DNA of 64,000 bases, taken from an uncultured Candidatus Saccharibacteria bacterium (GTDB taxonomy: Bacteria > Patescibacteriota > Doudnabacteria > UBA920). Below the pieces are notes generated by a model. The model did no database searches, was not told the origin of the DNA, and saw only the letters and a list, made by a program, of their open reading frames with translations. The DNA lies in contig CAZDEP010000006.1 of NCBI GenBank assembly GCA_964504715.1, positions 4,748 to 68,747 on the forward strand, given 5' to 3'. The position numbers were made by a program, and so were the translations under genes. Shown one piece after another: positions 2,414 to 25,937 of the stretch. How positions within the stretch are numbered: the stretch's first letter is position 1; every line of letters starts with the position of its first letter.

Positions 2414-4201
2414 ATGAAAATAACAGCGCAAGAGCTTAGGGAAAAATTTCTTAATTTCTTTAAGTCAAAAAAACACGCCATCATCCCTTCGGCTTCTTTA
2501 GTGCCTTCAGGAGACGCTTCGGTTTTGTTTACTACTGCTGGCATGCATCCGCTGGTGCCGTTTTTGCTTGGCCAGGAGCATCCGGCAGGGAAACGCGTAG
2601 CCAACGTCCAAAAGTGCATAAGAACAGGCGATATAGACGAAGTGGGGGACGCAACCCATCTGACTTTTTTTGAAATGATGGGCAATTGGAGCTTTGGCGA
2701 TTATTTTAAAAAAGAAGCGATTGAGTGGAGCTTTGAATTCTTGACCTCCCCTGAGTATTTAGGTTTGCCTTTGGAGCGTCTCGCTATAACCTGTTTTGCG
2801 GGCGACGAAGATGCGCCAAGGGACGAAGAATCATCCGCAATCTGGAAAGCTTTGGGTGTGCCGGAACACCGAATTAGCTTTTTGCCGAAGGAAAAAAATT
2901 GGTGGATAGCCGGCGGCAGCGGACCATGCGGCCCTGACACCGAAATGCATTACTGGATAGACGATTCCACGCCTGCGCCCAAGGAATACGACGTTAACGA
3001 ATCGCGCTGGGTGGAAATTTGGAACGATGTCTTCATGCAGTATGAAAAAAAACCCACCGGCGAATTGGTGCCGTTAAAGCAGCAAAATGTGGATACGGGC
3101 ATGGGCTTAGACAGGGTTTTGGCCGTGTTGAACGGCCAGACTTCGGTTTACGATACTGACTTGTTTAAGCCAATGTGGGAGGTAATAGGTTTGGGCAATG
3201 AAATACTGTCAAACGACGAAATAAAAAAAGCCCGGATTATTTTGGACCATATCCGCGCCGCTGTGTTTATTGTAGGGGACGGCATTGAGCCTTCCAACAA
3301 GGACCGCGGCTATGTTTTAAGACGGCTTTTAAGGCGCGCTATGGTTATGGCCAGGCTTTTGAATTTGCAGTCAACCTGGCTTAAGGCATTGGTGGGGCAG
3401 GTGATATTTACCTATTCATCGCCATATACAGAGCTACGCGATAACAATGAAAAGATTTTCAATGTAATTGAAAATGAGTATGGTAAGTTTAATACAACAC
3501 TGGAAAAAGGTTTGAAGGAGTTTGCCAGGATAAGTAAGCAGTACGCAGAGGACAGCAAGCAGTTGAATGGTAAAGATGCGTTTGATTTGTATCAAACTTA
3601 CGGTTTCCCGTGGGAATTGACCAAAGAATTGGCTGAGGCTGCGGGGCAAAAAATTGACAAGGCCCAGTTTGAAGAAGAATTTAAAAAGCACCAGGACTTG
3701 TCCAGGACAGCCAGCGCCGGGCAGTTTAAAGGCGGTTTGGCCTCTCATAGTGAAAAGATTGTCAGACTCCATACTGCCACGCATTTAATGAACGCGGCCT
3801 TAAGGCAGGTGCTGGGGGAAAATATTTGGCAAAAGGGGAGTAACATTACCGAAGAGAGGACTCGTTTTGATTTTACCCACGACAAAAAAATGACGTCTGA
3901 GGAAGTTGCGGCCGTGGAAGCTTTGGTTAACGATTGGGTGGCAAGGGACTTAAAAGTCAAACGGGAAATGATGCCCCAGGAGGCCGCGCGAGAGCTTGGA
4001 GCCATCGGCGTGTTTGGTGAAAAATACTCAGACACCGTTTCTATTTATACCGTTTTTGACGAAAAAACCGGGGAAGTCATCTCCCGCGAGTTTTGCGGCG
4101 GCCCTCACGTAGAACATACCGGCGTAATCGGCCAGTTTAAAATCCAAAAGGAAGAGGCTTCTTCCGCAGGCATTAGAAGAATTAAAGCAACAATTATATA
4201 A
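2414..4201 (+). CDS. alaS: Alanine--tRNA ligase, short form lacking the C-terminal C-Ala domain
   Basis: Class II AlaRS catalytic core (FTTAGMHPLVPF, FFEMMGNWSFGDYFK) and editing-domain HxxxH (HTATHLMNAA ... CGGPHVEHTG). The protein is about 596 aa versus about 870 aa for typical AlaRS. ATG at 2414 inside track ORF 2378..4201. Confidence 0.85.
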   Translation: MKITAQELREKFLNFFKSKKHAIIPSASLVPSGDASVLFTTAGMHPLVPFLLGQEHPAGKRVANVQKCIRTGDIDEVGDATHLTFFEMMGNWSFGDYFKKEAIEWSFEFLTSPEYLGLPLERLAITCFAGDEDAPRDEESSAIWKALGVPEHRISFLPKEKNWWIAGGSGPCGPDTEMHYWIDDSTPAPKEYDVNESRWVEIWNDVFMQYEKKPTGELVPLKQQNVDTGMGLDRVLAVLNGQTSVYDTDLFKPMWEVIGLGNEILSNDEIKKARIILDHIRAAVFIVGDGIEPSNKDRGYVLRRLLRRAMVMARLLNLQSTWLKALVGQVIFTYSSPYTELRDNNEKIFNVIENEYGKFNTTLEKGLKEFARISKQYAEDSKQLNGKDAFDLYQTYGFPWELTKELAEAAGQKIDKAQFEEEFKKHQDLSRTASAGQFKGGLASHSEKIVRLHTATHLMNAALRQVLGENIWQKGSNITEERTRFDFTHDKKMTSEEVAAVEALVNDWVARDLKVKREMMPQEAARELGAIGVFGEKYSDTVSIYTVFDEKTGEVISREFCGGPHVEHTGVIGQFKIQKEEASSAGIRRIKATII

Positions 4202-13534: not shown

Positions 13535-13950
13535 GCTCTAAGCAAGCTCATAAGCCGAATTCTGTTTCTTCCGCCAAAGGCGGATCGCCGAAATTAAATA
13601 AATAATCTTGGCGAAATAATCATCTCTCTGCCCATTCGATTGCTCGGAAGGGTCAAGCAGCCTACCAAATTTGGCCTTGCACTCAAGTAAGGATTTAGCC
13701 GTTTCACCCGCGATATTTCTATCACGGCTCACCCTATGCCGTATATCTTCCTTTTCGGGAAAATTCGGGTATAGGGTGTCTTTAGCCTTTCGGCCAAAGA
13801 CGTTTCTGTTCGCACCTCGAGGATTACTCCAGACGGGCGTTACCCGCTACTAATTTTGAAAACTCTATAGAGGTTCTCAAAGGAGTGTTCGGACTTTCCT
13901 CCCAGCCCTTTGAATAGAGCTGGGCGATTATTCGACTTGCTTAGAGCCAG
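13535..13950 (-). ncRNA. rnpB: RNase P RNA (bacterial type A)
   Basis: The minus-strand read has a P1 pairing (gctctaagcaag ... cttgcttagagc) and a P3 hairpin. The universally conserved P4 strands are present: GGAGGAAAGTCCGAAC at the 5' end and ACAGAATTCGGCTTA at the 3' end. It also carries GGGTAACGCC, GTGCGAACAGAAAC, AGGGTGAAACGGC and TGCAAGGCCAAAT. Confidence 0.8.
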
Positions 13951-21038: not shown

Positions 21039-22511
21039 ATGATCGAAAATTCTCAGCTAGAAGAAATTCTTTCGCAAGATTCAGCCAAAGCTTATTTTAT
21101 TGGCATGGGCGGCATTGCCATGTCTGCTGCCGCCAGCATAGCAATGGAAATGGGCCTTCAGGTAGAAGGCAGCGATGCGACCGAAGTTTATGCGCCGGCC
21201 AGCGATGTGCTCAAGTCTTTTGGCTTAACGCCTCATTTGGGTTACAATGCGCAAAATATTTTAAATTCCCAAGCAGACTTATTTGTGCTTTCGGCGGGGG
21301 AAGGTCCGCAAAATCCGGAAGTTGATTGCATATTAAAAAATAATTTTCCTCGCGTCGGTTTTCCGCAGCTTTTGCGCCTGCTCGCCGAAGACAAATTAAG
21401 GGTAGTGATTGCCGGCACTCACGGCAAGACCACCACTACCGGGCTTTTAGGCCATATTTTAAAAAATATTGATGGTAGCTCTTTTTTAGCCGGGGGCGTG
21501 CTTGTAAATTATGGACAAAATTTCCATCTTGGCCAGGGGCACTATTTTATTTTTGAAGGGGATGAATATAAATCGGAATTCGACGACCCGACGCCCAAAT
21601 TCCACTATTACGAGCCTGATATTTTAATTCTAACAAACCTGGAATTTGACCACCCAGACCTGTTTGCGTCTTTTGAGGACCTCAAGCGAGAGTTTGAGCA
21701 GTTAATTGCCAATCTCCCCCCCGACGGTTTGATTGTTTACAATGCCGATAATGTCCATTTGTCACAGCTGGTTAGGGCTTCAGAAGTGGCCAGCGTAAGC
21801 TTTGGTATAGACAATGAGGCCGATTACAAAGTTGAGCAAATCCAGTATGACCAAAATTTTACTTCTTTTGAAGTATTAAATAAATTTTCCAAAAATGTTT
21901 CTTCCAGCCTGCTTGGCCTGACCGAACAGTATAAAATTCAGTTGCCGGGAAAACTTAACGTTTACAACGCTTTGGCAGTTGTGGCAGCCTTGCGGGCCCT
22001 GGGGTTTTCCGAGGAAGATATCCAGCTTGATTTGCTCTCTTTTAAAGGCATAAAACGCCGTTTTGAGGTTGTGGGATCGAAAAGTGGCGTTACCCTTATA
22101 GACGATTATGCGCATCACCCGACAGCGGTAAAAGAAACGCTGGATGCCGCCCGCCTGCGCTACCCTCAGGCAAAAATCTGGGCGATATTTGAACCTCATA
22201 CCTTTTCCCGCACCAAAGCGACGCTGGAGGAATTGGCTCAGGCATTCGATTCTGCGGATGAGGTTTTAATTTCCGAAATTTATCCCGCTCGCGAAAAAGT
22301 TTCCGAAGCCACTATAGATTCAGCAAAGGTCATTGAAGTTATAAAAGAGCATAATGCTAAATTCCAAATCAAAAATGGGGTTAGAAAAGTGGATAGCAAA
22401 TCAAACGCGATTAAAATTTTAAAAGATGAACTTAAGCCCGGCGATGCGGTAGTGGTTATGGCGGTTGGTGAATTCAACCGACTATCTTATGAGTTAAAAG
22501 AAATTTTATAA
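21039..22511 (+). CDS. murC: UDP-N-acetylmuramate--L-alanine ligase (Mur ligase family)
   Basis: MurC-type N-terminus (YFIGMGGIAMSAAASIAMEMGLQVEGSD) and P-loop IAGTHGKTTTTGLLGHIL. Confidence 0.7.
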   Translation: MIENSQLEEILSQDSAKAYFIGMGGIAMSAAASIAMEMGLQVEGSDATEVYAPASDVLKSFGLTPHLGYNAQNILNSQADLFVLSAGEGPQNPEVDCILKNNFPRVGFPQLLRLLAEDKLRVVIAGTHGKTTTTGLLGHILKNIDGSSFLAGGVLVNYGQNFHLGQGHYFIFEGDEYKSEFDDPTPKFHYYEPDILILTNLEFDHPDLFASFEDLKREFEQLIANLPPDGLIVYNADNVHLSQLVRASEVASVSFGIDNEADYKVEQIQYDQNFTSFEVLNKFSKNVSSSLLGLTEQYKIQLPGKLNVYNALAVVAALRALGFSEEDIQLDLLSFKGIKRRFEVVGSKSGVTLIDDYAHHPTAVKETLDAARLRYPQAKIWAIFEPHTFSRTKATLEELAQAFDSADEVLISEIYPAREKVSEATIDSAKVIEVIKEHNAKFQIKNGVRKVDSKSNAIKILKDELKPGDAVVVMAVGEFNRLSYELKEIL

Positions 22512-22533: not shown

Positions 22534-23631
22534 GTGAGAATGAATTTTATGGACATTTTAAAGAATGTTGGGTTATCGCAATATACAACCTTTAAAATCG
22601 GCGGGGAAGCCGACTATTTTTGCGTAGTGAAAGACCAATTCGATGCGCTGACGGCTTACGAGTTTGCCCGCAGCAAACATCACGAAGTATTTATTTTGGG
22701 CGGTGGCAGCAATTTGCTCATAAGCGACAAGGGTTTTGGAGGGTTGGTTATAAAAGTTGAAAACAGCGGTATAGAAGTTGTATGTGAAAACGATACAGAA
22801 GTCGTTTTAAAAGTAGCGTCGGGCGAAAAATGGGACGCTGTGGTTAGTTTTGCAGTAAATAACGGGTGGTGGGGCGTGGAAAACCTTTCGCACATTCCCG
22901 GAAACTGCGGCGCCATTGCCGTACAGAATGTCGGGGCCTACGGCCAGGAAGCTTCGAAGGTTATAAAGTCGGTTACGGTTTTTGACCGCGACACTCACCA
23001 AATTTTGGAGTTGGAAAACAGCAGTTGCAATTTTGGTTATCGTTCGAGCATTTTTAACACTGCGCAAAAGGGCAAATATATAATTTTCTCCATAACGTTT
23101 GTACTTTTAAAATCCCCCCGGCCGGTTTTGTCTTATAGGGATTTAGCCAAAAAATTTGAAGGATTTAACCCTTCTTTGCAGGAAATTAGGTCCGCTGTTA
23201 CGGAAATCCGCGATGCCAAGTTTCCATATCCTACGGAAGCGCGCTTGGGCAACGCGGGGTCGTTTTTTAAAAATCCAGTAATGGACGAAAAGGAATTGCT
23301 TAAACTCAAAGAAGTTTTGGCCTCGGTTTTTGGGTCCGAAAAAGTCGCCCTTTTGGAGAGTAAAATTTTTAAGGAAGGGAGGAAAATCAAAGTCCCCGCG
23401 GCTTTTTTAATGGAAATTTGCGGCCTTAAAGATTTAAAATATGGAGGCGCAAAAATTAATCATAACCAACCCTTAGTCATAGTTAATGAAGAGGGCAGGG
23501 CCACGGCTTTGGATGTGTTGGGCTTGGCCAAAAAAGTCATTGCGACTGTCTATGAAAAGTGCGGCGTTAAGTTAAAACTTGAGCCGGAGCTGGTGGGTTT
23601 TTCCCCAAGCGAACTTGAAGGTGTGATATAA
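22534..23631 (+). CDS. murB: UDP-N-acetylenolpyruvoylglucosamine reductase
   Basis: FAD-binding domain (TTFKIGGEADYFCVVKD ... ILGGGSNLLISD). Confidence 0.8.
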   Translation: MRMNFMDILKNVGLSQYTTFKIGGEADYFCVVKDQFDALTAYEFARSKHHEVFILGGGSNLLISDKGFGGLVIKVENSGIEVVCENDTEVVLKVASGEKWDAVVSFAVNNGWWGVENLSHIPGNCGAIAVQNVGAYGQEASKVIKSVTVFDRDTHQILELENSSCNFGYRSSIFNTAQKGKYIIFSITFVLLKSPRPVLSYRDLAKKFEGFNPSLQEIRSAVTEIRDAKFPYPTEARLGNAGSFFKNPVMDEKELLKLKEVLASVFGSEKVALLESKIFKEGRKIKVPAAFLMEICGLKDLKYGGAKINHNQPLVIVNEEGRATALDVLGLAKKVIATVYEKCGVKLKLEPELVGFSPSELEGVI

Positions 23632-23708: not shown

Positions 23709-24020
23709 GTGAACATCAACATCAAAGCTACTAAAACAACTCTCACACCTTCCATAAAACAGTTTGTGGAAGATAAAATCCAGTCATTGGAGACTTTTAT
23801 AAAGTCGGAAGACAAAATTCGTGTTGAACTGGAAGTCGACAAAAAACACAGTTCGGGCAAAATCTACCGAGCGGAAGTTGATATTCAGCCGCACGGGCAC
23901 TATGCCGAGGCTTTTGCTGAAGATTTTTATGCCGCGTTTGATTTGGTAATGCCCAAAATAAAAGAACAGCTGGCAAAGCAAAAAGACAAGCGCGTTTCCC
24001 TTAGGCGCCGCGGTCGCTAG
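23709..24020 (+). CDS. hpf: Ribosome hibernation promoting factor / RaiA (S30AE family)
   Basis: HYAEAFAEDFYAAFDLVMPKIKEQL signature; GTG start. Confidence 0.85.
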   Translation: MNINIKATKTTLTPSIKQFVEDKIQSLETFIKSEDKIRVELEVDKKHSSGKIYRAEVDIQPHGHYAEAFAEDFYAAFDLVMPKIKEQLAKQKDKRVSLRRRGR

Positions 24021-24086
24021 CCCCTCAAACCTTTTGCACTACTGTACCTGCCTGCCCTGCCTACCGGCAGGCAGGCGGTAGGCAGG

Positions 24087-24195
24087 CTAGTGCCGTTTCA
24101 TTTTAATTATGTCGATTGTCAGATTTTCAAACTCCTCTAAAATAAATTAATTTAAGGGATATTGGCCGTCAGGTTTAAAATGAAACGGCACTAGT
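24087..24195. terminator. 20-bp perfect inverted repeat (ctagtgccgtttcattttaa / ttaaaatgaaacggcactag) flanking a 69-bp AT-rich loop
   Basis: Long stem-loop at the 3' end of the minus-strand trpR-like gene. Confidence 0.45.
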
Positions 24196-24209
24196 ACACT
24201 AAAACAGTC

Positions 24210-24494
24210 TTATTTGTAAAATTTTTCCAAAACCAGGCGGAAACCACCTTTTTTGTTTGCCAATTCGCGGGCGCCGCGATTAACGGTCGCCACACTCACC
24301 TTGAGCTGTGTGGCAATTTCGCGATGTGGGACCGCGGCCTGGAGCCTCTTGATGATTTGCCAGCGGACGGCCAGTTCGCGGTATTCGGCGGGTGACAGTA
24401 TATCAAATAAAAATTCCCTCATCAGAGCCTTGTCTTTGCCAATTTTGCCCACCAATCCTTCTAGTTCTGCCCCATATTCGTGTTTATATTGCAT
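24210..24494 (-). CDS. TrpR/YerC/YecD-family transcriptional regulator
   Basis: Trp-repressor-like helix-turn-helix (HREIATQLKVSVATVNRGARELANK); about 94 aa. Confidence 0.7.
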   Translation of the reverse strand: MQYKHEYGAELEGLVGKIGKDKALMREFLFDILSPAEYRELAVRWQIIKRLQAAVPHREIATQLKVSVATVNRGARELANKKGGFRLVLEKFYK

Positions 24495-24510
24495 ATTTTT
24501 TCTTTTGCTT

Positions 24511-24528
24511 TAGTGTACTAGTACACTA
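24511..24528. promoter_or_regulatory. 18-bp perfect palindrome tagtgtactagtacacta (trp-operator-like ACTAGT core) over the regulator's own promoter
   Basis: Lies 17-34 nt upstream of the regulator's start codon and overlaps a minus-strand TTGACG -35 / TAGTGT -10. Confidence 0.6.
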
Positions 24529-24594
24529 GAACATGCGGATCTTCGCGTCAACTGTGGATAATTAGATCTATTTTTTGCAATTTGGATGTTTCAG

Positions 24595-24606
24595 CGTACT
24601 AGTACG
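24595..24606. promoter_or_regulatory. 12-bp palindrome cgtactagtacg abutting a TTGACA -35 box on the + strand
   Basis: cgtactagtacg ggtg TTGACA, 17 nt, then TATGTT. Confidence 0.5.
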
Positions 24607-24941
24607 GTGTTGACAATGGGACGCAGAGAGAGTATGTTTTATTCATATGGAAAATTTGGTGGCTAAAAACAATATTGCAGTTTGGTGGGGTTTGCAGACT
24701 TTCGCAAAGCCCGGTGTTTTTAGCTGACTTTTTCAGTCTCCCGATAGTTGCTTTTAACCACCTTTTGGCTTTTTGCGAAAGGTGGTTTTGTTTTGGCTGT
24801 TTTTAACATCTCGATCAAATTTGCGTATTAGCCTGCCTGCTGGCAGGTATGCTAATGCAAATGGATGTTGTTGGCAGCCAGCACAAATCCACATGGCAGG
24901 ATAAACAAGCGTGCTGGCTTGCCTGCAAAGAAGGAGGTGCG

Positions 24942-25169
24942 ATGTACTACATCGCGCAGCAGCCGTCGCCAGTGGCGACCGCAAGACTTAAAAACGCTGG
25001 GTATGGGCGGGAAGGGGGCGAACTGGCGGCTCATCAGGTTAGCGGGAATTCTGTAACCGTGACCTTCGTTGAAACGGGTTTTTTTGGCGGCTTAACCCGT
25101 CATACAATGTCTGGCGAAGAATTTAAGCGCAACTTCGCCGTTATCCGCAACAAGAGGGCCAAACGCTAA
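24942..25169 (+). CDS. Hypothetical small protein (75 aa), higher GC than surroundings
   Basis: Strong RBS AAGGAGGTG 5 nt before the ATG at 24942; it is the internal start of track ORF 24849..25169. A near-perfect GC hairpin follows the stop. Confidence 0.35.
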   Translation: MYYIAQQPSPVATARLKNAGYGREGGELAAHQVSGNSVTVTFVETGFFGGLTRHTMSGEEFKRNFAVIRNKRAKR

Positions 25170-25212
25170 AAGCGTTTCGGCCCTCTTTCCACATCAGCAT
25201 GCACGTTTTAAC

Positions 25213-25222
25213 GTACTAGTAC
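25213..25222. promoter_or_regulatory. Third GTACTAGTAC palindrome at the right edge of the island
   Basis: acgtactagtac immediately followed by the right terminal inverted repeat. Confidence 0.45.
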
Positions 25223-25695
25223 AGTAGTGCAAAAGGCGCGGGGGTGGGGAGGGTTATGGGTATATTTACCCTTTTTAGTTTACTTGGAGCATGTAGGGAG
25301 GGTTTGTGCCCAGTTGGGTGCTTTATAGTTACTGCTTGAGAGAATGTAATTTATTGAGTTTTTAGGCTCGATAAATCGAGCGACTACAAGATCATTGGAA
25401 ATTGAAATTATAATTATAATGTTGATTGCTATTGACAGCATTGGTCGGGCTGGTATAATACAGTAAGTATGAATAAATTATCGCAAAATTTCTGGTATTT
25501 CTTTTATTTTTTTACTGGCCTGCTTGGAACCAGGAATTTTGAGTTTAATCCACAGATACACATATTGCACAGATAACACTGAACAAAGGATTCAACGTAA
25601 AACTCCCGGCTTCAAGCGAAGCCGGTTTTTTGTTTACCAATACAATATAATAGCAAACAATCCGCCGAAGCGTCTGGCGTAGGCGGGTGTTATTT

Positions 25696-25771
25696 GGGGA
25701 CGTAGTTTAGTTGGTTAGAACGCCGGCCTAAAAAACCGGAAAGGCAGGTTCGAATCCTGTTGTCCCCGCCA
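25696..25771 (+). tRNA. tRNA, isotype unresolved (anticodon loop CUAAAAA; apparent anticodon AAA)
   Basis: Cloverleaf: acceptor GGGGACG pairs with TGTCCCC (one G-U pair), D-arm with GG, T-arm GCAGG-TTCGAAT-CCTGT, encoded CCA, short variable loop. The anticodon stem has a C-A mismatch and the loop is A-rich. Confidence 0.55.
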
Positions 25772-25808: not shown

Positions 25809-25937
25809 ATGGAATGCCCTAATTGTAAAAAAAAGCTCATCGAAAAAGGGGATCGGGCCCTGTGTCCGAAGTGCCCTTTTCGAAGAGAAAAAAAATTGGT
25901 TGCTAACTGGCAACCGAAACTACAGGAAAAAAAGTGA
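25809..25937 (+). CDS. Small zinc-ribbon protein (42 aa)
   Basis: MECPNCKKKLIEKGDRALCPKCPFRREKK... with two CPxC pairs; strong RBS AGAAGGAGGGG 6 nt upstream. A perfect hairpin ccccccgcttagcgggggg lies between the tRNA and this ORF. Confidence 0.4.
   Translation: MECPNCKKKLIEKGDRALCPKCPFRREKKLVANWQPKLQEKK

What the first reader, a model, noticed from the sequence alone, without database searches (positions are those of the whole stretch)
24021..25240. Small higher-GC island with a TrpR-family regulator, GTACTAGTAC operators and 18-bp terminal inverted repeats
The island lies between hpf and a tRNA.

(a) It is bounded by an 18-bp perfect inverted repeat, ccttttgcactactgtac at 24030-24047 and its reverse complement at 25219-25236.

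(b) A minus-strand 94-aa TrpR/YerC-type HTH protein sits at 24210-24494.

(c) Three palindromes with the trp-operator-like ACTAGT core are present. tagtgtactagtacacta (24511-24528) lies over the regulator's own promoter. cgtactagtacg (24595-24606) abuts a plus-strand TTGACA -35 that points at a 75-aa ORF with a consensus RBS (24942-25169). gtactagtac (25213-25222) is at the right end. A half-site lies at 24191-24201.

(d) A 20-bp perfect stem (24087-24195) follows the regulator's 3' end.

(e) GC content is visibly higher than the flanks, and a GC-rich cctgcc/ggcagg hairpin sits at the left end.

This looks like a self-contained autoregulated cassette (regulator plus one cargo gene) acquired next to a tRNA. 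It could be a minimal mobile or addiction-like module, or a tryptophan-independent YerC-type switch.
Basis: partly seen in the sequence, partly recalled or inferred. Interest (0 to 1): 0.65.

Follow-up and report, generated by a model that had tools for sequence, protein, structure and literature searches.

The report
Tryptophan-sensing switch driving orphan small genes
The flagged "island" is not a mobile element but an ancestral tryptophan-sensing control module of candidate-phyla-radiation bacteria, in which a TrpR-type repressor with its operators and a Trp-codon leader-peptide attenuator are followed by a previously undescribed RNA pseudoknot in front of an orphan 75-aa gene.

Summary
The higher-GC claim fails: GC is 0.466 against a window mean of 0.442, and 19% of equal-sized windows are as high.

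The interpretation changes. The 18-bp "terminal inverted repeats" are the flanks of two of five copies (S1-S5) of an extended TrpR-type operator (core GTACTAGTAC). The 20-bp stem and the GC hairpin are small insertions that split operator S1 and are absent in a relative.

The locus murB-hpf-[regulator...cargo]-secA is syntenic in more than 30 related Doudnabacteria-like contigs, so it is ancestral, not acquired.

- A leaderless 26-codon ORF with tandem Trp codons, a 1:2 hairpin, an antiterminator and an intrinsic terminator. This is a classic Trp attenuator, conserved in 29 distinct leaders from several CPR lineages.
- A conserved pseudoknot RNA motif that is not in Rfam. It precedes at least 32 different orphan small ORFs.

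In relatives the same regulator/leader controls trpB2 plus a SerK-like gene, or sits in trpS-trpR-trpBA. The signal is therefore very probably tryptophan. The function of the cargo remains unknown.

The parts
24030..24047 (.). Outer half of operator copy S1.
   Evidence: In relative L002 it is contiguous with 24190-24206, giving cctttagcactactGTACTAGTACactaaaac. The flank carries the second 8-bp operator unit (PWM).
24047..24086 (.). 40-nt GC-rich hairpin inserted at GTACTAG^TAC of S1.
   Evidence: Absent in L002. The CCTGCCTGC...GGCAGG hairpin occurs only at S1 and S4 in the 64 kb. The same 20-nt core CCTGCCTGCCGGTAGGCAGG sits at the same operator position in L056 (S1) and L016 (S2).
24087..24194 (.). 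About 100-nt MITE-like insertion: 16-nt terminal inverted repeats TGCCGTTTCATTTTAA flanked by duplicated CTAG.
   Evidence: Perfect 20-nt arms (I4). Absent in L002. Single copy in the window and in the fetched loci, so mobility is unproven.
24190..24206 (.).
24210..24494 (-). TrpR-family repressor, 94 aa.
   Evidence: PF01371 E=2e-15. hhalign to E. coli TrpR gives probability 96%. 90 homologues, named Doudnabacteria or Patescibacteria where a name is given. dN/dS 0.05 against L002.
24502..24536 (.). Operator S2 (core 24515-24524, 18-bp palindrome 24511-24528). It overlaps the inferred -10 (24523-24528) of the regulator's promoter, whose inferred -35 is TTGACG at 24546-24551 on the minus strand.
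   Evidence: An exact core lies 25-45 nt upstream of the regulator start in most relatives. A -35-like TTGAnn hexamer sits 21 nt from the core in many relatives (read). The promoter is inferred and was not scored by the scan.
24586..24609 (.). Operator S3 (core 24596-24605), 4 nt upstream of the -35 of the leader promoter.
   Evidence: The operator+TTGACA arrangement is conserved in 41 instances.
24610..24638 (+). Sigma-70-type promoter TTGACA-17-TATGTT.
   Evidence: 10 of 12 matches. The ATG always starts 35-39 nt after the start of the -35, which implies a leaderless mRNA.
24647..24727 (+). Leader peptide ORF MENLVAKNNIAVWWGLQTFAKPGVFS. The tandem Trp codons are at 24683-24688.
   Evidence: 29 distinct homologous leaders, all with Trp at codon 11-18: WW 15, WR 8, WQ 3, WS 1 among the 27 tallied. 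Trp makes up 8% of codons.
24686..24716 (+). Segment 1 (GGGGTTTGC) and segment 2 (CTTTCGCAAAGCCCGGTG). They form the 1:2 hairpin. Segment 2 is also the antiterminator partner of the terminator.
   Evidence: Folds. The segment 2:terminator duplex averages -22.7 kcal/mol for each leader's own terminator against -19.05 for permuted partners, with 0 of 10000 permutations as low.
24756..24797 (+). Intrinsic terminator: 12-bp stem 24756-24787 followed by TTGTTTTGG.
   Evidence: A terminator is present in nearly all leaders.
24823..24864 (.). Degenerate operator S4 (GTATTAG...TAT) split by a 16-nt hairpin CCTGCCTGCTGGCAGG (24832-24847).
   Evidence: Intact GTACTAGTAC at the homologous place in L001 and L002.
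24877..24926 (+). Conserved 5'-UTR RNA motif. P1 is GCCAGCAC (24877-24884) / GTGCTGGC (24911-24918). Pseudoknot P2 is GCAGG (24896-24900) / CCTGC (24922-24926).
   Evidence: No Rfam match. P2 own-partner pairing beats permuted partners in 10000 of 10000 permutations. 83.7% of cells are paired against 28-44% for slid controls, and the covariation score is 0.236 against 0.153, with 0 of 500 shuffles reaching it. The motif precedes 32 distinct small ORFs.
24942..25169 (+). 75-aa orphan protein. The Shine-Dalgarno sequence AAGGAGG is at 24931-24937.
   Evidence: dN/dS 0.18-0.40. Only about 10 related clusters among 1.84 billion representatives. No Pfam, NCBIfam, PHROG or PADLOC hit. AlphaFold2 pLDDT 76, small beta-rich fold with no significant structural neighbour.
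25157..25182 (+). Hairpin spanning the stop codon of the 75-aa gene, probably a 3' end or stabiliser.
   Evidence: Read from the sequence. Conserved in L001 and L002. The T-run is weak, so it is not flagged.
25203..25236 (.). Operator S5 (core 25213-25222).
   Evidence: It is also the right boundary of the block that differs from L001.

Best explanation
The region is a tryptophan-responsive regulatory module that is ancestral in Doudnabacteria-like CPR bacteria. It has four parts.

1. A TrpR-family repressor (24210-24494). With Trp as corepressor (inferred), it binds tandem 8-bp units centred on GTACTAGTAC. S2 overlaps the -10 of its own promoter, which gives autorepression. S3 abuts the -35 of the divergent promoter, which gives repression of the cargo transcript. 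S1, S4 and S5 are auxiliary copies that flank the genes. In this strain S1 and S4 are broken by small hairpin insertions.

2. A leaderless leader ORF on the divergent transcript, starting at or next to the ATG, with tandem Trp codons.
- When charged tRNA-Trp is scarce, the ribosome stalls on WW and covers segment 1. Segment 2 then pairs with the terminator region (the antiterminator) and RNA polymerase reads through.
- When Trp is plentiful, the ribosome runs on over segment 2, the terminator 24756-24797 forms, and transcription stops.

3. A conserved pseudoknot immediately upstream of the Shine-Dalgarno sequence on read-through RNA. It is probably a translational or stability control element for an unknown ligand or protein.

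4. A real but orphan 75-aa protein as output.

Shown here: the sequence anatomy, conservation, covariation and genomic association with trp genes. Inferred: Trp as the ligand, repression rather than activation at S3, ribosome-mediated switching, and the role of the pseudoknot and of the cargo.
For: **Operator**
- The core is enriched 70-fold next to the regulator gene across 121 loci.
- It occupies fixed positions: 25-45 and 110-140 nt upstream of the regulator start.
- The PWM shows 8-bp tandem units. This matches the published TrpR half-site GNACT with 8-bp spacing and the published motif TGTAcTnGTnnACnAgTACA (PMC9413887).

**Regulator**
- Pfam TrpR domain.
- The alignment to E. coli TrpR keeps the equivalents of Arg54, Arg69, Ala80, Thr81, Arg84, Gly85, Pro45 and Thr44->Ser.

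**Attenuator**
- Promoter and terminator are found by the scan.
- There are 29 distinct leaders. The ATG lies 35-39 nt from the -35 and Trp sits at codon 11-18.
- WW or WWW leaders also occur in other CPR lineages.
- Masking the stalled-ribosome footprint switches the predicted fold to the 2:3 pairing in 7 of 16 leaders.
- Each leader's own antiterminator pairing beats all 10000 permutations.

**Link to tryptophan**
- The same leader precedes a SerK-like gene plus trpB2 in L008 and L014; trpB2 is also adjacent to the regulator in L009 and L099. TrpB2 scores 708 bits.
- In L043 the order is regulator, WW leader, trpB2, SerK-like gene, aroA. In L048 it is trpS-regulator-trpB-trpA.

**Ancestral locus:**

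**RNA motif:**

**Coding cargo:**
Against: - The regulator scores below NCBIfam's TrpR equivalog cut-off (38.6 against 67.25 bits). It matches HisR/YerC-type structures slightly better than E. coli TrpR (1.6e-8 against 3e-7).
- S3 lies upstream of the -35 rather than over it, a position that can also serve activators.
- With the ribosome footprint masked, the thermodynamic optimum still keeps the terminator in the window's own leader. Antitermination there rests on co-transcriptional kinetics.
- Several leaders have only one Trp codon (WR, WQ).
- The cargo in this genome has no recognisable link to tryptophan, and no trp gene lies within the 64 kb.
- There is no expression or binding data of any kind.
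Confidence: 0.75

Rival explanations
1. The region is a small acquired or mobile cassette, or an addiction module, bounded by 18-bp terminal inverted repeats and inserted next to a tRNA.
For: - A perfect 18-nt inverted repeat.
- Divergence from the near-identical strain L001 is confined to the block between S4 and S5: 55 mismatches in 24812-25209, against 4 upstream and 0 downstream. The cargo unit is therefore exchanged by recombination.
- Small insertions are present.
Against: - The whole module sits at murB-hpf...secA in more than 30 loci, and no empty site was seen.
- The repeats are flanks of operator copies that also occur internally (S2-S4).
- There is no target-site duplication, no transposase or integrase in the locus, and normal GC.
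- The tRNA is found only in the closest relatives and is separated from the right repeat by another transcription unit.
- There are no toxin or defence hits.
Confidence: 0.05
2. The regulator senses something other than tryptophan, as the TrpR-family histidine repressor HisR/YerC does. The conserved RNA after the promoter is a protein- or ligand-controlled attenuator or a small RNA, and its small ORF is incidental.
For: - The regulator is below the NCBIfam cut-offs for both TrpR and YerC.
- Its best PDB hits are HisR-type proteins (their identity as HisR comes from PMC9413887).
- The leader RNA is more conserved than the coding sequences, and its hairpins covary.
Against: - Trp codons are the only constant feature of otherwise unconserved leader peptides. 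They stay in frame with a start codon fixed relative to the promoter.
- trpB2, trpBA, trpS and aroA are the only recognisable enzyme genes linked to the regulator.
- The equivalents of Arg69 and the Trp pocket are kept. According to PMC9413887 they are replaced in HisR.
Confidence: 0.1
3. The promoter at 24610 makes only the short terminated RNA or peptide. The 75-aa gene is expressed from its own operator-associated promoter at S4 and is controlled mainly through the pseudoknot motif.
For: - An operator copy followed by a -35-like TGCAAA lies 40-85 nt upstream of each pseudoknot-plus-ORF unit.
- The pseudoknot-plus-ORF units recur as independent repeats within a locus.
Against: - No -10 element at a suitable distance in the window, L001 or L002, and no promoter-like site in 24800-24940.
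- S4 is destroyed in this strain while the gene stays under purifying selection.
Confidence: 0.12

Closest known systems
E. coli trp regulon control: TrpR repressor/operator plus the trpL leader-peptide attenuator
   Same: - A small all-helical TrpR-fold repressor and a CTAG-centred palindromic operator with 8-bp tandem units.
- Autoregulation.
- A leader ORF with tandem Trp codons, 1:2, 2:3 and 3:4 alternative hairpins, and an intrinsic terminator.
- Two layers: free Trp sensed through the repressor, and charged tRNA-Trp sensed through attenuation.
   Different: - The regulator is a distinct CPR subfamily, below the TrpR equivalog cut-off.
- The leader mRNA is leaderless.
- The Rfam Trp_leader family does not match.
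- The operator lies upstream of the -35.
- The output in this genome is an orphan 75-aa protein behind an extra pseudoknot motif, not trpEDCBA.
- Extra operator copies flank the genes.
Chlamydia trachomatis trpRBA (TrpR plus attenuation controlling indole-salvage tryptophan synthase; PMC7755916)
   Same: A reduced-genome, host-dependent bacterium that keeps only the last step or steps of Trp synthesis under a TrpR-family repressor with additional attenuation. The CPR relatives L048 (trpS-trpR-trpBA) and L008, L014 and L043 (leader-trpB2) have this layout.
   Different: - The regulator and its targets are divergent here, not one operon.
- There is no evidence for an iron/YtgR layer.
- TrpB2 with a SerK-like partner replaces TrpBA in the Doudnabacteria clade.
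- This window has no trp enzyme gene at all.
HisR/YerC, the TrpR-family histidine repressor of Firmicutes (PMC9413887)
   Same: Same Pfam family, similar size, a 20-bp palindromic operator, frequent autoregulation, and co-occurrence with amino-acid leader attenuators in some lineages.
   Different: - The HisR motif is cacTTTA-N6-TAAAgtg, not GTACTAGTAC.
- HisR replaces Arg69 and the Trp-pocket residues, whereas the CPR family keeps them.
- The context here is Trp codons and trp genes, not his genes.
Integron-like gene cassette arrays (a resemblance in behaviour only)
   Same: Short promoterless units, each made of one small variable ORF with a common upstream element and bounded by copies of an imperfect palindrome. 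They vary in number and content between relatives, and divergence is confined to one unit between near-identical strains.
   Different: No integrase was found, the palindromes are a transcription factor's operators, and the arrays hold only 1-2 units. Exchange could be ordinary homologous recombination in the conserved flanks.

Membership tests
TrpR (tryptophan repressor) family | Trp_repressor domain (Pfam PF01371) above the gathering score | tested here: met
   56.9 bits against a cut-off of 27.
TrpR (tryptophan repressor) family | Orthology to gamma-proteobacterial TrpR (NCBIfam TIGR01321 equivalog cut-off) | tested here: not met
   38.6 bits against a cut-off of 67.25. It is a separate CPR subfamily.
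TrpR (tryptophan repressor) family | DNA-contact residues Arg69, Ile79, Ala80, Thr81, Thr83 and Arg84, and Trp-pocket residues Arg54, Arg84, Thr44, Pro45 and Gly85 | tested here: met
   The hhalign alignment pairs R58, V68, A69, T70, N72 (T in the family consensus) and R73 with the DNA-contact residues, and R44, R73, S34, P35 and G74 with the pocket residues. The list of DNA-contact residues is from PMC9413887. The pocket list is from my own knowledge of the TrpR structures.
TrpR (tryptophan repressor) family | Palindromic operator with CTAG core / GNACT half-sites at 8-bp spacing next to regulated promoters | tested here: met
   compared with the published motif.
TrpR (tryptophan repressor) family | L-tryptophan-dependent operator binding | not testable with these tools
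   Needs EMSA or ITC.
YerC/YecD (HisR) subfamily | NCBIfam TIGR02531 cut-off, and the HisR-type motif and residue replacements | tested here: not met
   25.2 bits against a cut-off of 42.2. The operator and the Arg69 equivalent are TrpR-like.
Ribosome-mediated (leader-peptide) transcription attenuator | A short ORF with regulatory codons for the sensed amino acid, conserved in position | tested here: met
   29 distinct leaders with Trp at codon 11-18. 47 of 58 TGG triplets are in frame. This count is biased by selection, as stated in the report.
Ribosome-mediated (leader-peptide) transcription attenuator | An intrinsic terminator downstream of the leader ORF | tested here: met
Ribosome-mediated (leader-peptide) transcription attenuator | Mutually exclusive antiterminator pairing, placed so that a ribosome stalled at the regulatory codons favours it | tested here: met
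   This is computational only. For the window's own leader the masked minimum-free-energy fold keeps the terminator, so the case is partly inconclusive at this locus.
Ribosome-mediated (leader-peptide) transcription attenuator | Control of genes for the cognate amino acid | tested here: inconclusive
   Met in relatives: trpB2 in L008, L014 and L043; trpB2 is also adjacent to the regulator in L009 and L099. Not met in this window, where the cargo is orphan.
Rfam Trp_leader or any Rfam family | A covariance-model match | tested here: not met
   No relevant hit even at E<=10.
MITE / IS-type mobile element (whole 24030-25236 segment) | Terminal inverted repeats with a target-site duplication, copies elsewhere or empty sites, and a transposase for autonomous forms | tested here: not met
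   The inverted repeat is present, but there is no duplication at 24029 / 25237. The position is syntenic in more than 30 loci. No transposase ORF was found.
Toxin-antitoxin / addiction module | A co-transcribed toxin and antitoxin pair from known families | tested here: not met
   The genes are divergent. There is no Pfam, NCBIfam, PHROG or PADLOC match for the 75-aa protein. Toxicity itself is not testable here.

The most novel reading that the evidence does not exclude
CPR bacteria carry a phylum-spanning tryptophan-starvation regulon whose main outputs are not enzymes. The outputs are arrays of exchangeable cassettes. Each cassette is one hypervariable orphan small protein behind a new class of pseudoknot riboregulator, possibly a riboswitch or the binding site of the small proteins themselves.

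In this reading the TrpR operator copies double as cassette boundaries and recombination points. They are also the specific insertion target (GTACTAG^TAC) of a 20-nt GC-rich hairpin element that disables individual operators.
Probability: 0.2. Interest if true: 0.8.

Novelty: new variant of a known kind. Interest (0 to 1): 0.62.

Why it matters
Almost nothing is known about gene regulation in CPR/Patescibacteria, which cannot be cultured alone and lack most amino-acid biosynthesis.

- **Old logic, new place.** The textbook two-layer Trp control, repressor plus leader-peptide attenuation, exists there with an operator essentially identical to the enterobacterial one. That widens the known range of TrpR proper and gives a ready-made, testable sensor system.
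- **Unexpected outputs.** In many genomes the system drives orphan small proteins through an undescribed conserved RNA pseudoknot. This points to an unknown starvation or host-dependence response and yields a new candidate cis-regulatory RNA family.
- **Annotation.** The result corrects a tempting misreading of operator repeats as mobile-element ends.

Tried and rejected
- **Rfam** at gathering and at E<=10: only the tRNA, RNase P and chance hairpin hits. Nothing matches the leader or the pseudoknot.
- **Pfam, NCBIfam, PHROGs and PADLOC** on the 75-aa protein, plus Pfam on ten other cargo proteins and PADLOC on two: no hits.
- **TRAP-like protein.** The cargo is also 75 aa and has a GLTRH motif. 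Rejected: no Pfam TrpBP hit and no structural match.
- **Diversity-generating retroelement** as the cause of cargo divergence from L001. Rejected: the mismatches are not adenine-specific and extend into non-coding flanks.
- **Extra copies of the inserted elements.** None were found for the 108-nt IR element or the 146-nt insert in the window or in 135 loci, so their mobility is unproven.
- **Internal promoter upstream of the cargo.** None was found.
- **S2-S3 spacing as a helical-phase signal for looping.** Distances of 72-108 bp show no periodicity (derived).
- **Literature searches** for a CPR TrpR, attenuator or trpB2 regulon: nothing found. The only relevant note is that trpA and trpB occur in a minority of Patescibacteria MAGs (PMC8672522).
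Full report
**1. What is in the sequence**

Genes around the region run murC (21039-22511), murB (22534-23631) and hpf (23709-24020, Pfam S30AE). Next come a minus-strand 94-aa Trp_repressor-family ORF (24210-24494), a plus-strand 75-aa ORF (24942-25169), a tRNA (25696-25771) and secA (26272-).

- The 18-nt perfect inverted repeat and the 20-nt perfect arms.
- Three exact GTACTAGTAC cores plus one split copy. These are the only four matches in 64 kb, against 0.3 expected.

GC is not unusual. The region is at 0.466 against 0.442 +/- 0.025 for equal-sized windows, and 19% of those windows are as high.

**2. The locus is ancestral, and the 'terminal repeats' are operator copies**

The 75-aa protein has only three members in the 5.8-billion-protein index. 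Their contigs show the same gene order at the same place.

Aligning the window with L001 (near-identical strain) and L002 (regulator 86% identical) gives three results:
- The left 'terminal repeat' (24030-24047) and the 'half-site' (24190-24206) are two halves of one site. In L002 it reads cctttagcactactGTACTAGTACactaaaac.
- In the window this site (S1) is split by 142 nt. These are a 40-nt GC hairpin plus a roughly 100-nt unit with 16-nt inverted ends and a duplicated CTAG.
- A further site (S4) is intact in L001 and L002. In the window it is degenerate and split by a 16-nt CCTGCCTGCTGGCAGG hairpin.

There are therefore five copies (S1-S5) of a motif of about 35 nt. S1 and S5 happen to be inverted relative to each other.

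A search of species-representative genomes and of metagenomes with the regulator family returned 132 loci. hpf, murB and secA flank the regulator in more than 30 of them.

**3. GTACTAGTAC is the operator of this regulator family**

- Exact cores lie 25-45 and 110-140 nt upstream of the regulator start in most Doudnabacteria-like loci, and next to the regulator in other CPR phyla.
- 73 of 121 distinct loci have at least one exact core within 450 nt of the gene. The density is 0.90/kb there against 0.013/kb elsewhere in the same loci.
- The position matrix of 126 distinct sites extends to about 28 bp: tGTnnTAnT-GTACTAGTAC-AnTAnnACa. This amounts to tandem 8-bp units. It agrees with the published gamma-proteobacterial TrpR motif and with GNACT half-sites at 8-bp spacing (PMC9413887).

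The protein aligns to E. coli TrpR with 96% probability. It keeps the equivalents of Arg54, Arg69, Ala80, Thr81, Arg84, Gly85 and Pro45. By that paper's account, the YerC/HisR branch replaces Arg69 and most of the Trp pocket. The protein is below the NCBIfam cut-offs for both TrpR and YerC, so it is a separate subfamily that is TrpR-like in its functional residues.

**4. A Trp leader-peptide attenuator lies behind the promoter**

The promoter is TTGACA-17-TATGTT at 24610-24638. It is followed 8 nt later by an ATG that opens MENLVAKNNIAVWWGLQTFAKPGVFS (24647-24727). Then come a hairpin (GGGGTTTGC / GCAAAGCCC) and a 12-bp terminator with a U-run (24756-24797).

Conservation across loci:
- 29 distinct leaders were recovered. 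Each has an ATG 35-39 nt after the start of the -35, which implies a leaderless mRNA.
- The peptide sequence is otherwise unconserved, but Trp is always at codon 11-18: WW in 15, WR in 8, WQ in 3, WS in 1 of the 27 tallied. Trp makes up 8% of codons.
- A terminator follows in nearly all.
- The in-frame excess of TGG (47, 9 and 2 by frame) is partly a product of how the leaders were selected.
- Independent CPR lineages have the same design with WW or WWW leaders, in a co-directional layout.

Segment 2, which lies just 3' of the Trp codons, is complementary to 15-22 nt of the terminator region. Each leader's own pairing averages -22.7 kcal/mol against -19.05 for permuted partners, and none of 10000 permutations did as well.

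Masking a ribosome stalled at the Trp codons switches the predicted fold to this antiterminator in 7 of 16 leaders. In the window's own leader the terminator remains the optimum, so the switch there would have to be kinetic.

**5. Why tryptophan**

- In L008 and L014 the leader is followed by a SerK/SbnI-like gene (weak match, E about 1e-9) and then TrpB2 (708 bits). trpB2 is also adjacent to the regulator in L009 and L099.
- In L043 the order is regulator, WW leader, trpB2, SerK-like gene, aroA.
- In L048 it is trpS-regulator-trpB-trpA.
- These are the only recognisable enzyme genes tied to the regulator.
- No trp gene lies in this 64-kb window.

**6. A new RNA motif and variable cargo**

Just upstream of the cargo Shine-Dalgarno sequence lies GCCAGCAC-N26-GTGCTGGC. 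A loop segment, GCAGG, pairs with CCTGC downstream (24877-24926).

Support for the structure:
- P1 shows an A-U to G-C swap (14 against 7 sequences).
- P2 covaries widely. Own-partner pairing beats all 10000 permutations.
- On a plain MAFFT alignment, 83.7% of cells pair against 28-44% for slid controls. The covariation score is 0.236 against 0.153, with 0 of 500 shuffles reaching it.
- Rfam has no match.

The motif precedes 32 distinct small ORFs of 41-131 aa, often two per locus. None of the ten tested has a Pfam family. Each unit is preceded by an operator copy.

The 75-aa ORF is a real gene, with dN/dS of 0.18-0.40. It belongs to a tiny family of about 10 clusters among 1.84 billion representatives. 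Its predicted fold is small and beta-rich, without a significant structural neighbour.

Window and L001 differ at 4 positions in 24166-24800 and at 0 positions in 25377-25700. Between S4 and S5 (24812-25209) they differ at 55 positions. The cargo unit has therefore been replaced by recombination between otherwise identical strains.

**7. Verdict**

The best-supported explanation is a Trp-responsive repressor-plus-attenuator module with an additional uncharacterised RNA element and an orphan output gene (confidence 0.75).

The regulatory logic is of a known kind. The following appear to be undescribed in the searched literature:
- its presence and conservation in CPR bacteria;
- the leaderless leader;
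- the pseudoknot motif;
- the exchangeable orphan cargo;
- the operator-targeted hairpin insertions.

Noticed in passing
window 25432-25632 (also L004, L008, L012, L015, L016, L017, L019, L021): A second leaderless leader-peptide attenuator lies next door. It has a perfect TTGACA-16-TATAAT promoter, an ORF MNKLSQNFWYFFYFFTG... with a run of Phe, Tyr and Trp codons, a conserved CAAAATTTC / GAAATTTTG hairpin, and a terminator at 25606-25625. In L016 it precedes a DAHP synthase (490 bits). Elsewhere it precedes small Zn-ribbon-like ORFs.
   Followed up: partly
window 25696-25771: A tRNA called Phe with anticodon AAA (ARAGORN; Rfam tRNA 62 bits). It has a C-A mismatch closing the anticodon stem and a G discriminator base. 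It is present only in the window and L001, inserted between the aromatic leader/terminator and a 42-aa Zn-ribbon ORF (25809-25937). It is absent from 10 relatives that were checked.
   Followed up: partly
window 24047-24086 and 24832-24847; L056 3306-3325; L016 about 3961-3979: A 16-40-nt GC-rich hairpin (core CCTGCCTGCCGGTAGGCAGG) is inserted at exactly the same point of the operator core (GTACTAG^TAC), in the same orientation. This is seen at different operator copies in three different genomes. In the 64-kb window the hairpin occurs nowhere else. It may be a targeted insertion or gene conversion between operator copies. L004 has an unrelated 38-nt hairpin at the same point of its S4.
   Followed up: partly
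window 25231-25376: A 146-nt segment directly after S5 is present in the window and L003 but absent from the otherwise identical L001. It contains two terminator-like hairpins and a 12-nt direct repeat.
   Followed up: no
L001 and L003, position 1 (= window 24166): Two independent Logan assemblies both break at the same base inside the 108-nt inverted-repeat insertion. This suggests a repeat or a polymorphism at that element in the populations.
   Followed up: no
L002 about 1492-1620: In L002 the regulator's own operator S2 is replaced or split by an insertion of about 115 nt that ends in ...GGCTGGCAGG|CTAG. Autoregulation may therefore be lost in that strain.
   Followed up: no
L048 2822-6750; L043 4001-8018: A Nomurabacteria genome carries trpS-trpR-trpB-trpA, a Chlamydia-like layout, with variant operators CATGCTAGTATG. 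A Magasanikbacteria genome carries trpR, a WW leader, trpB2, a SerK-like gene and aroA.
   Followed up: partly
window 13535-13943 (minus strand): Bacterial RNase P RNA class A, scoring 108 bits, just above its gathering score of 100.
   Followed up: no
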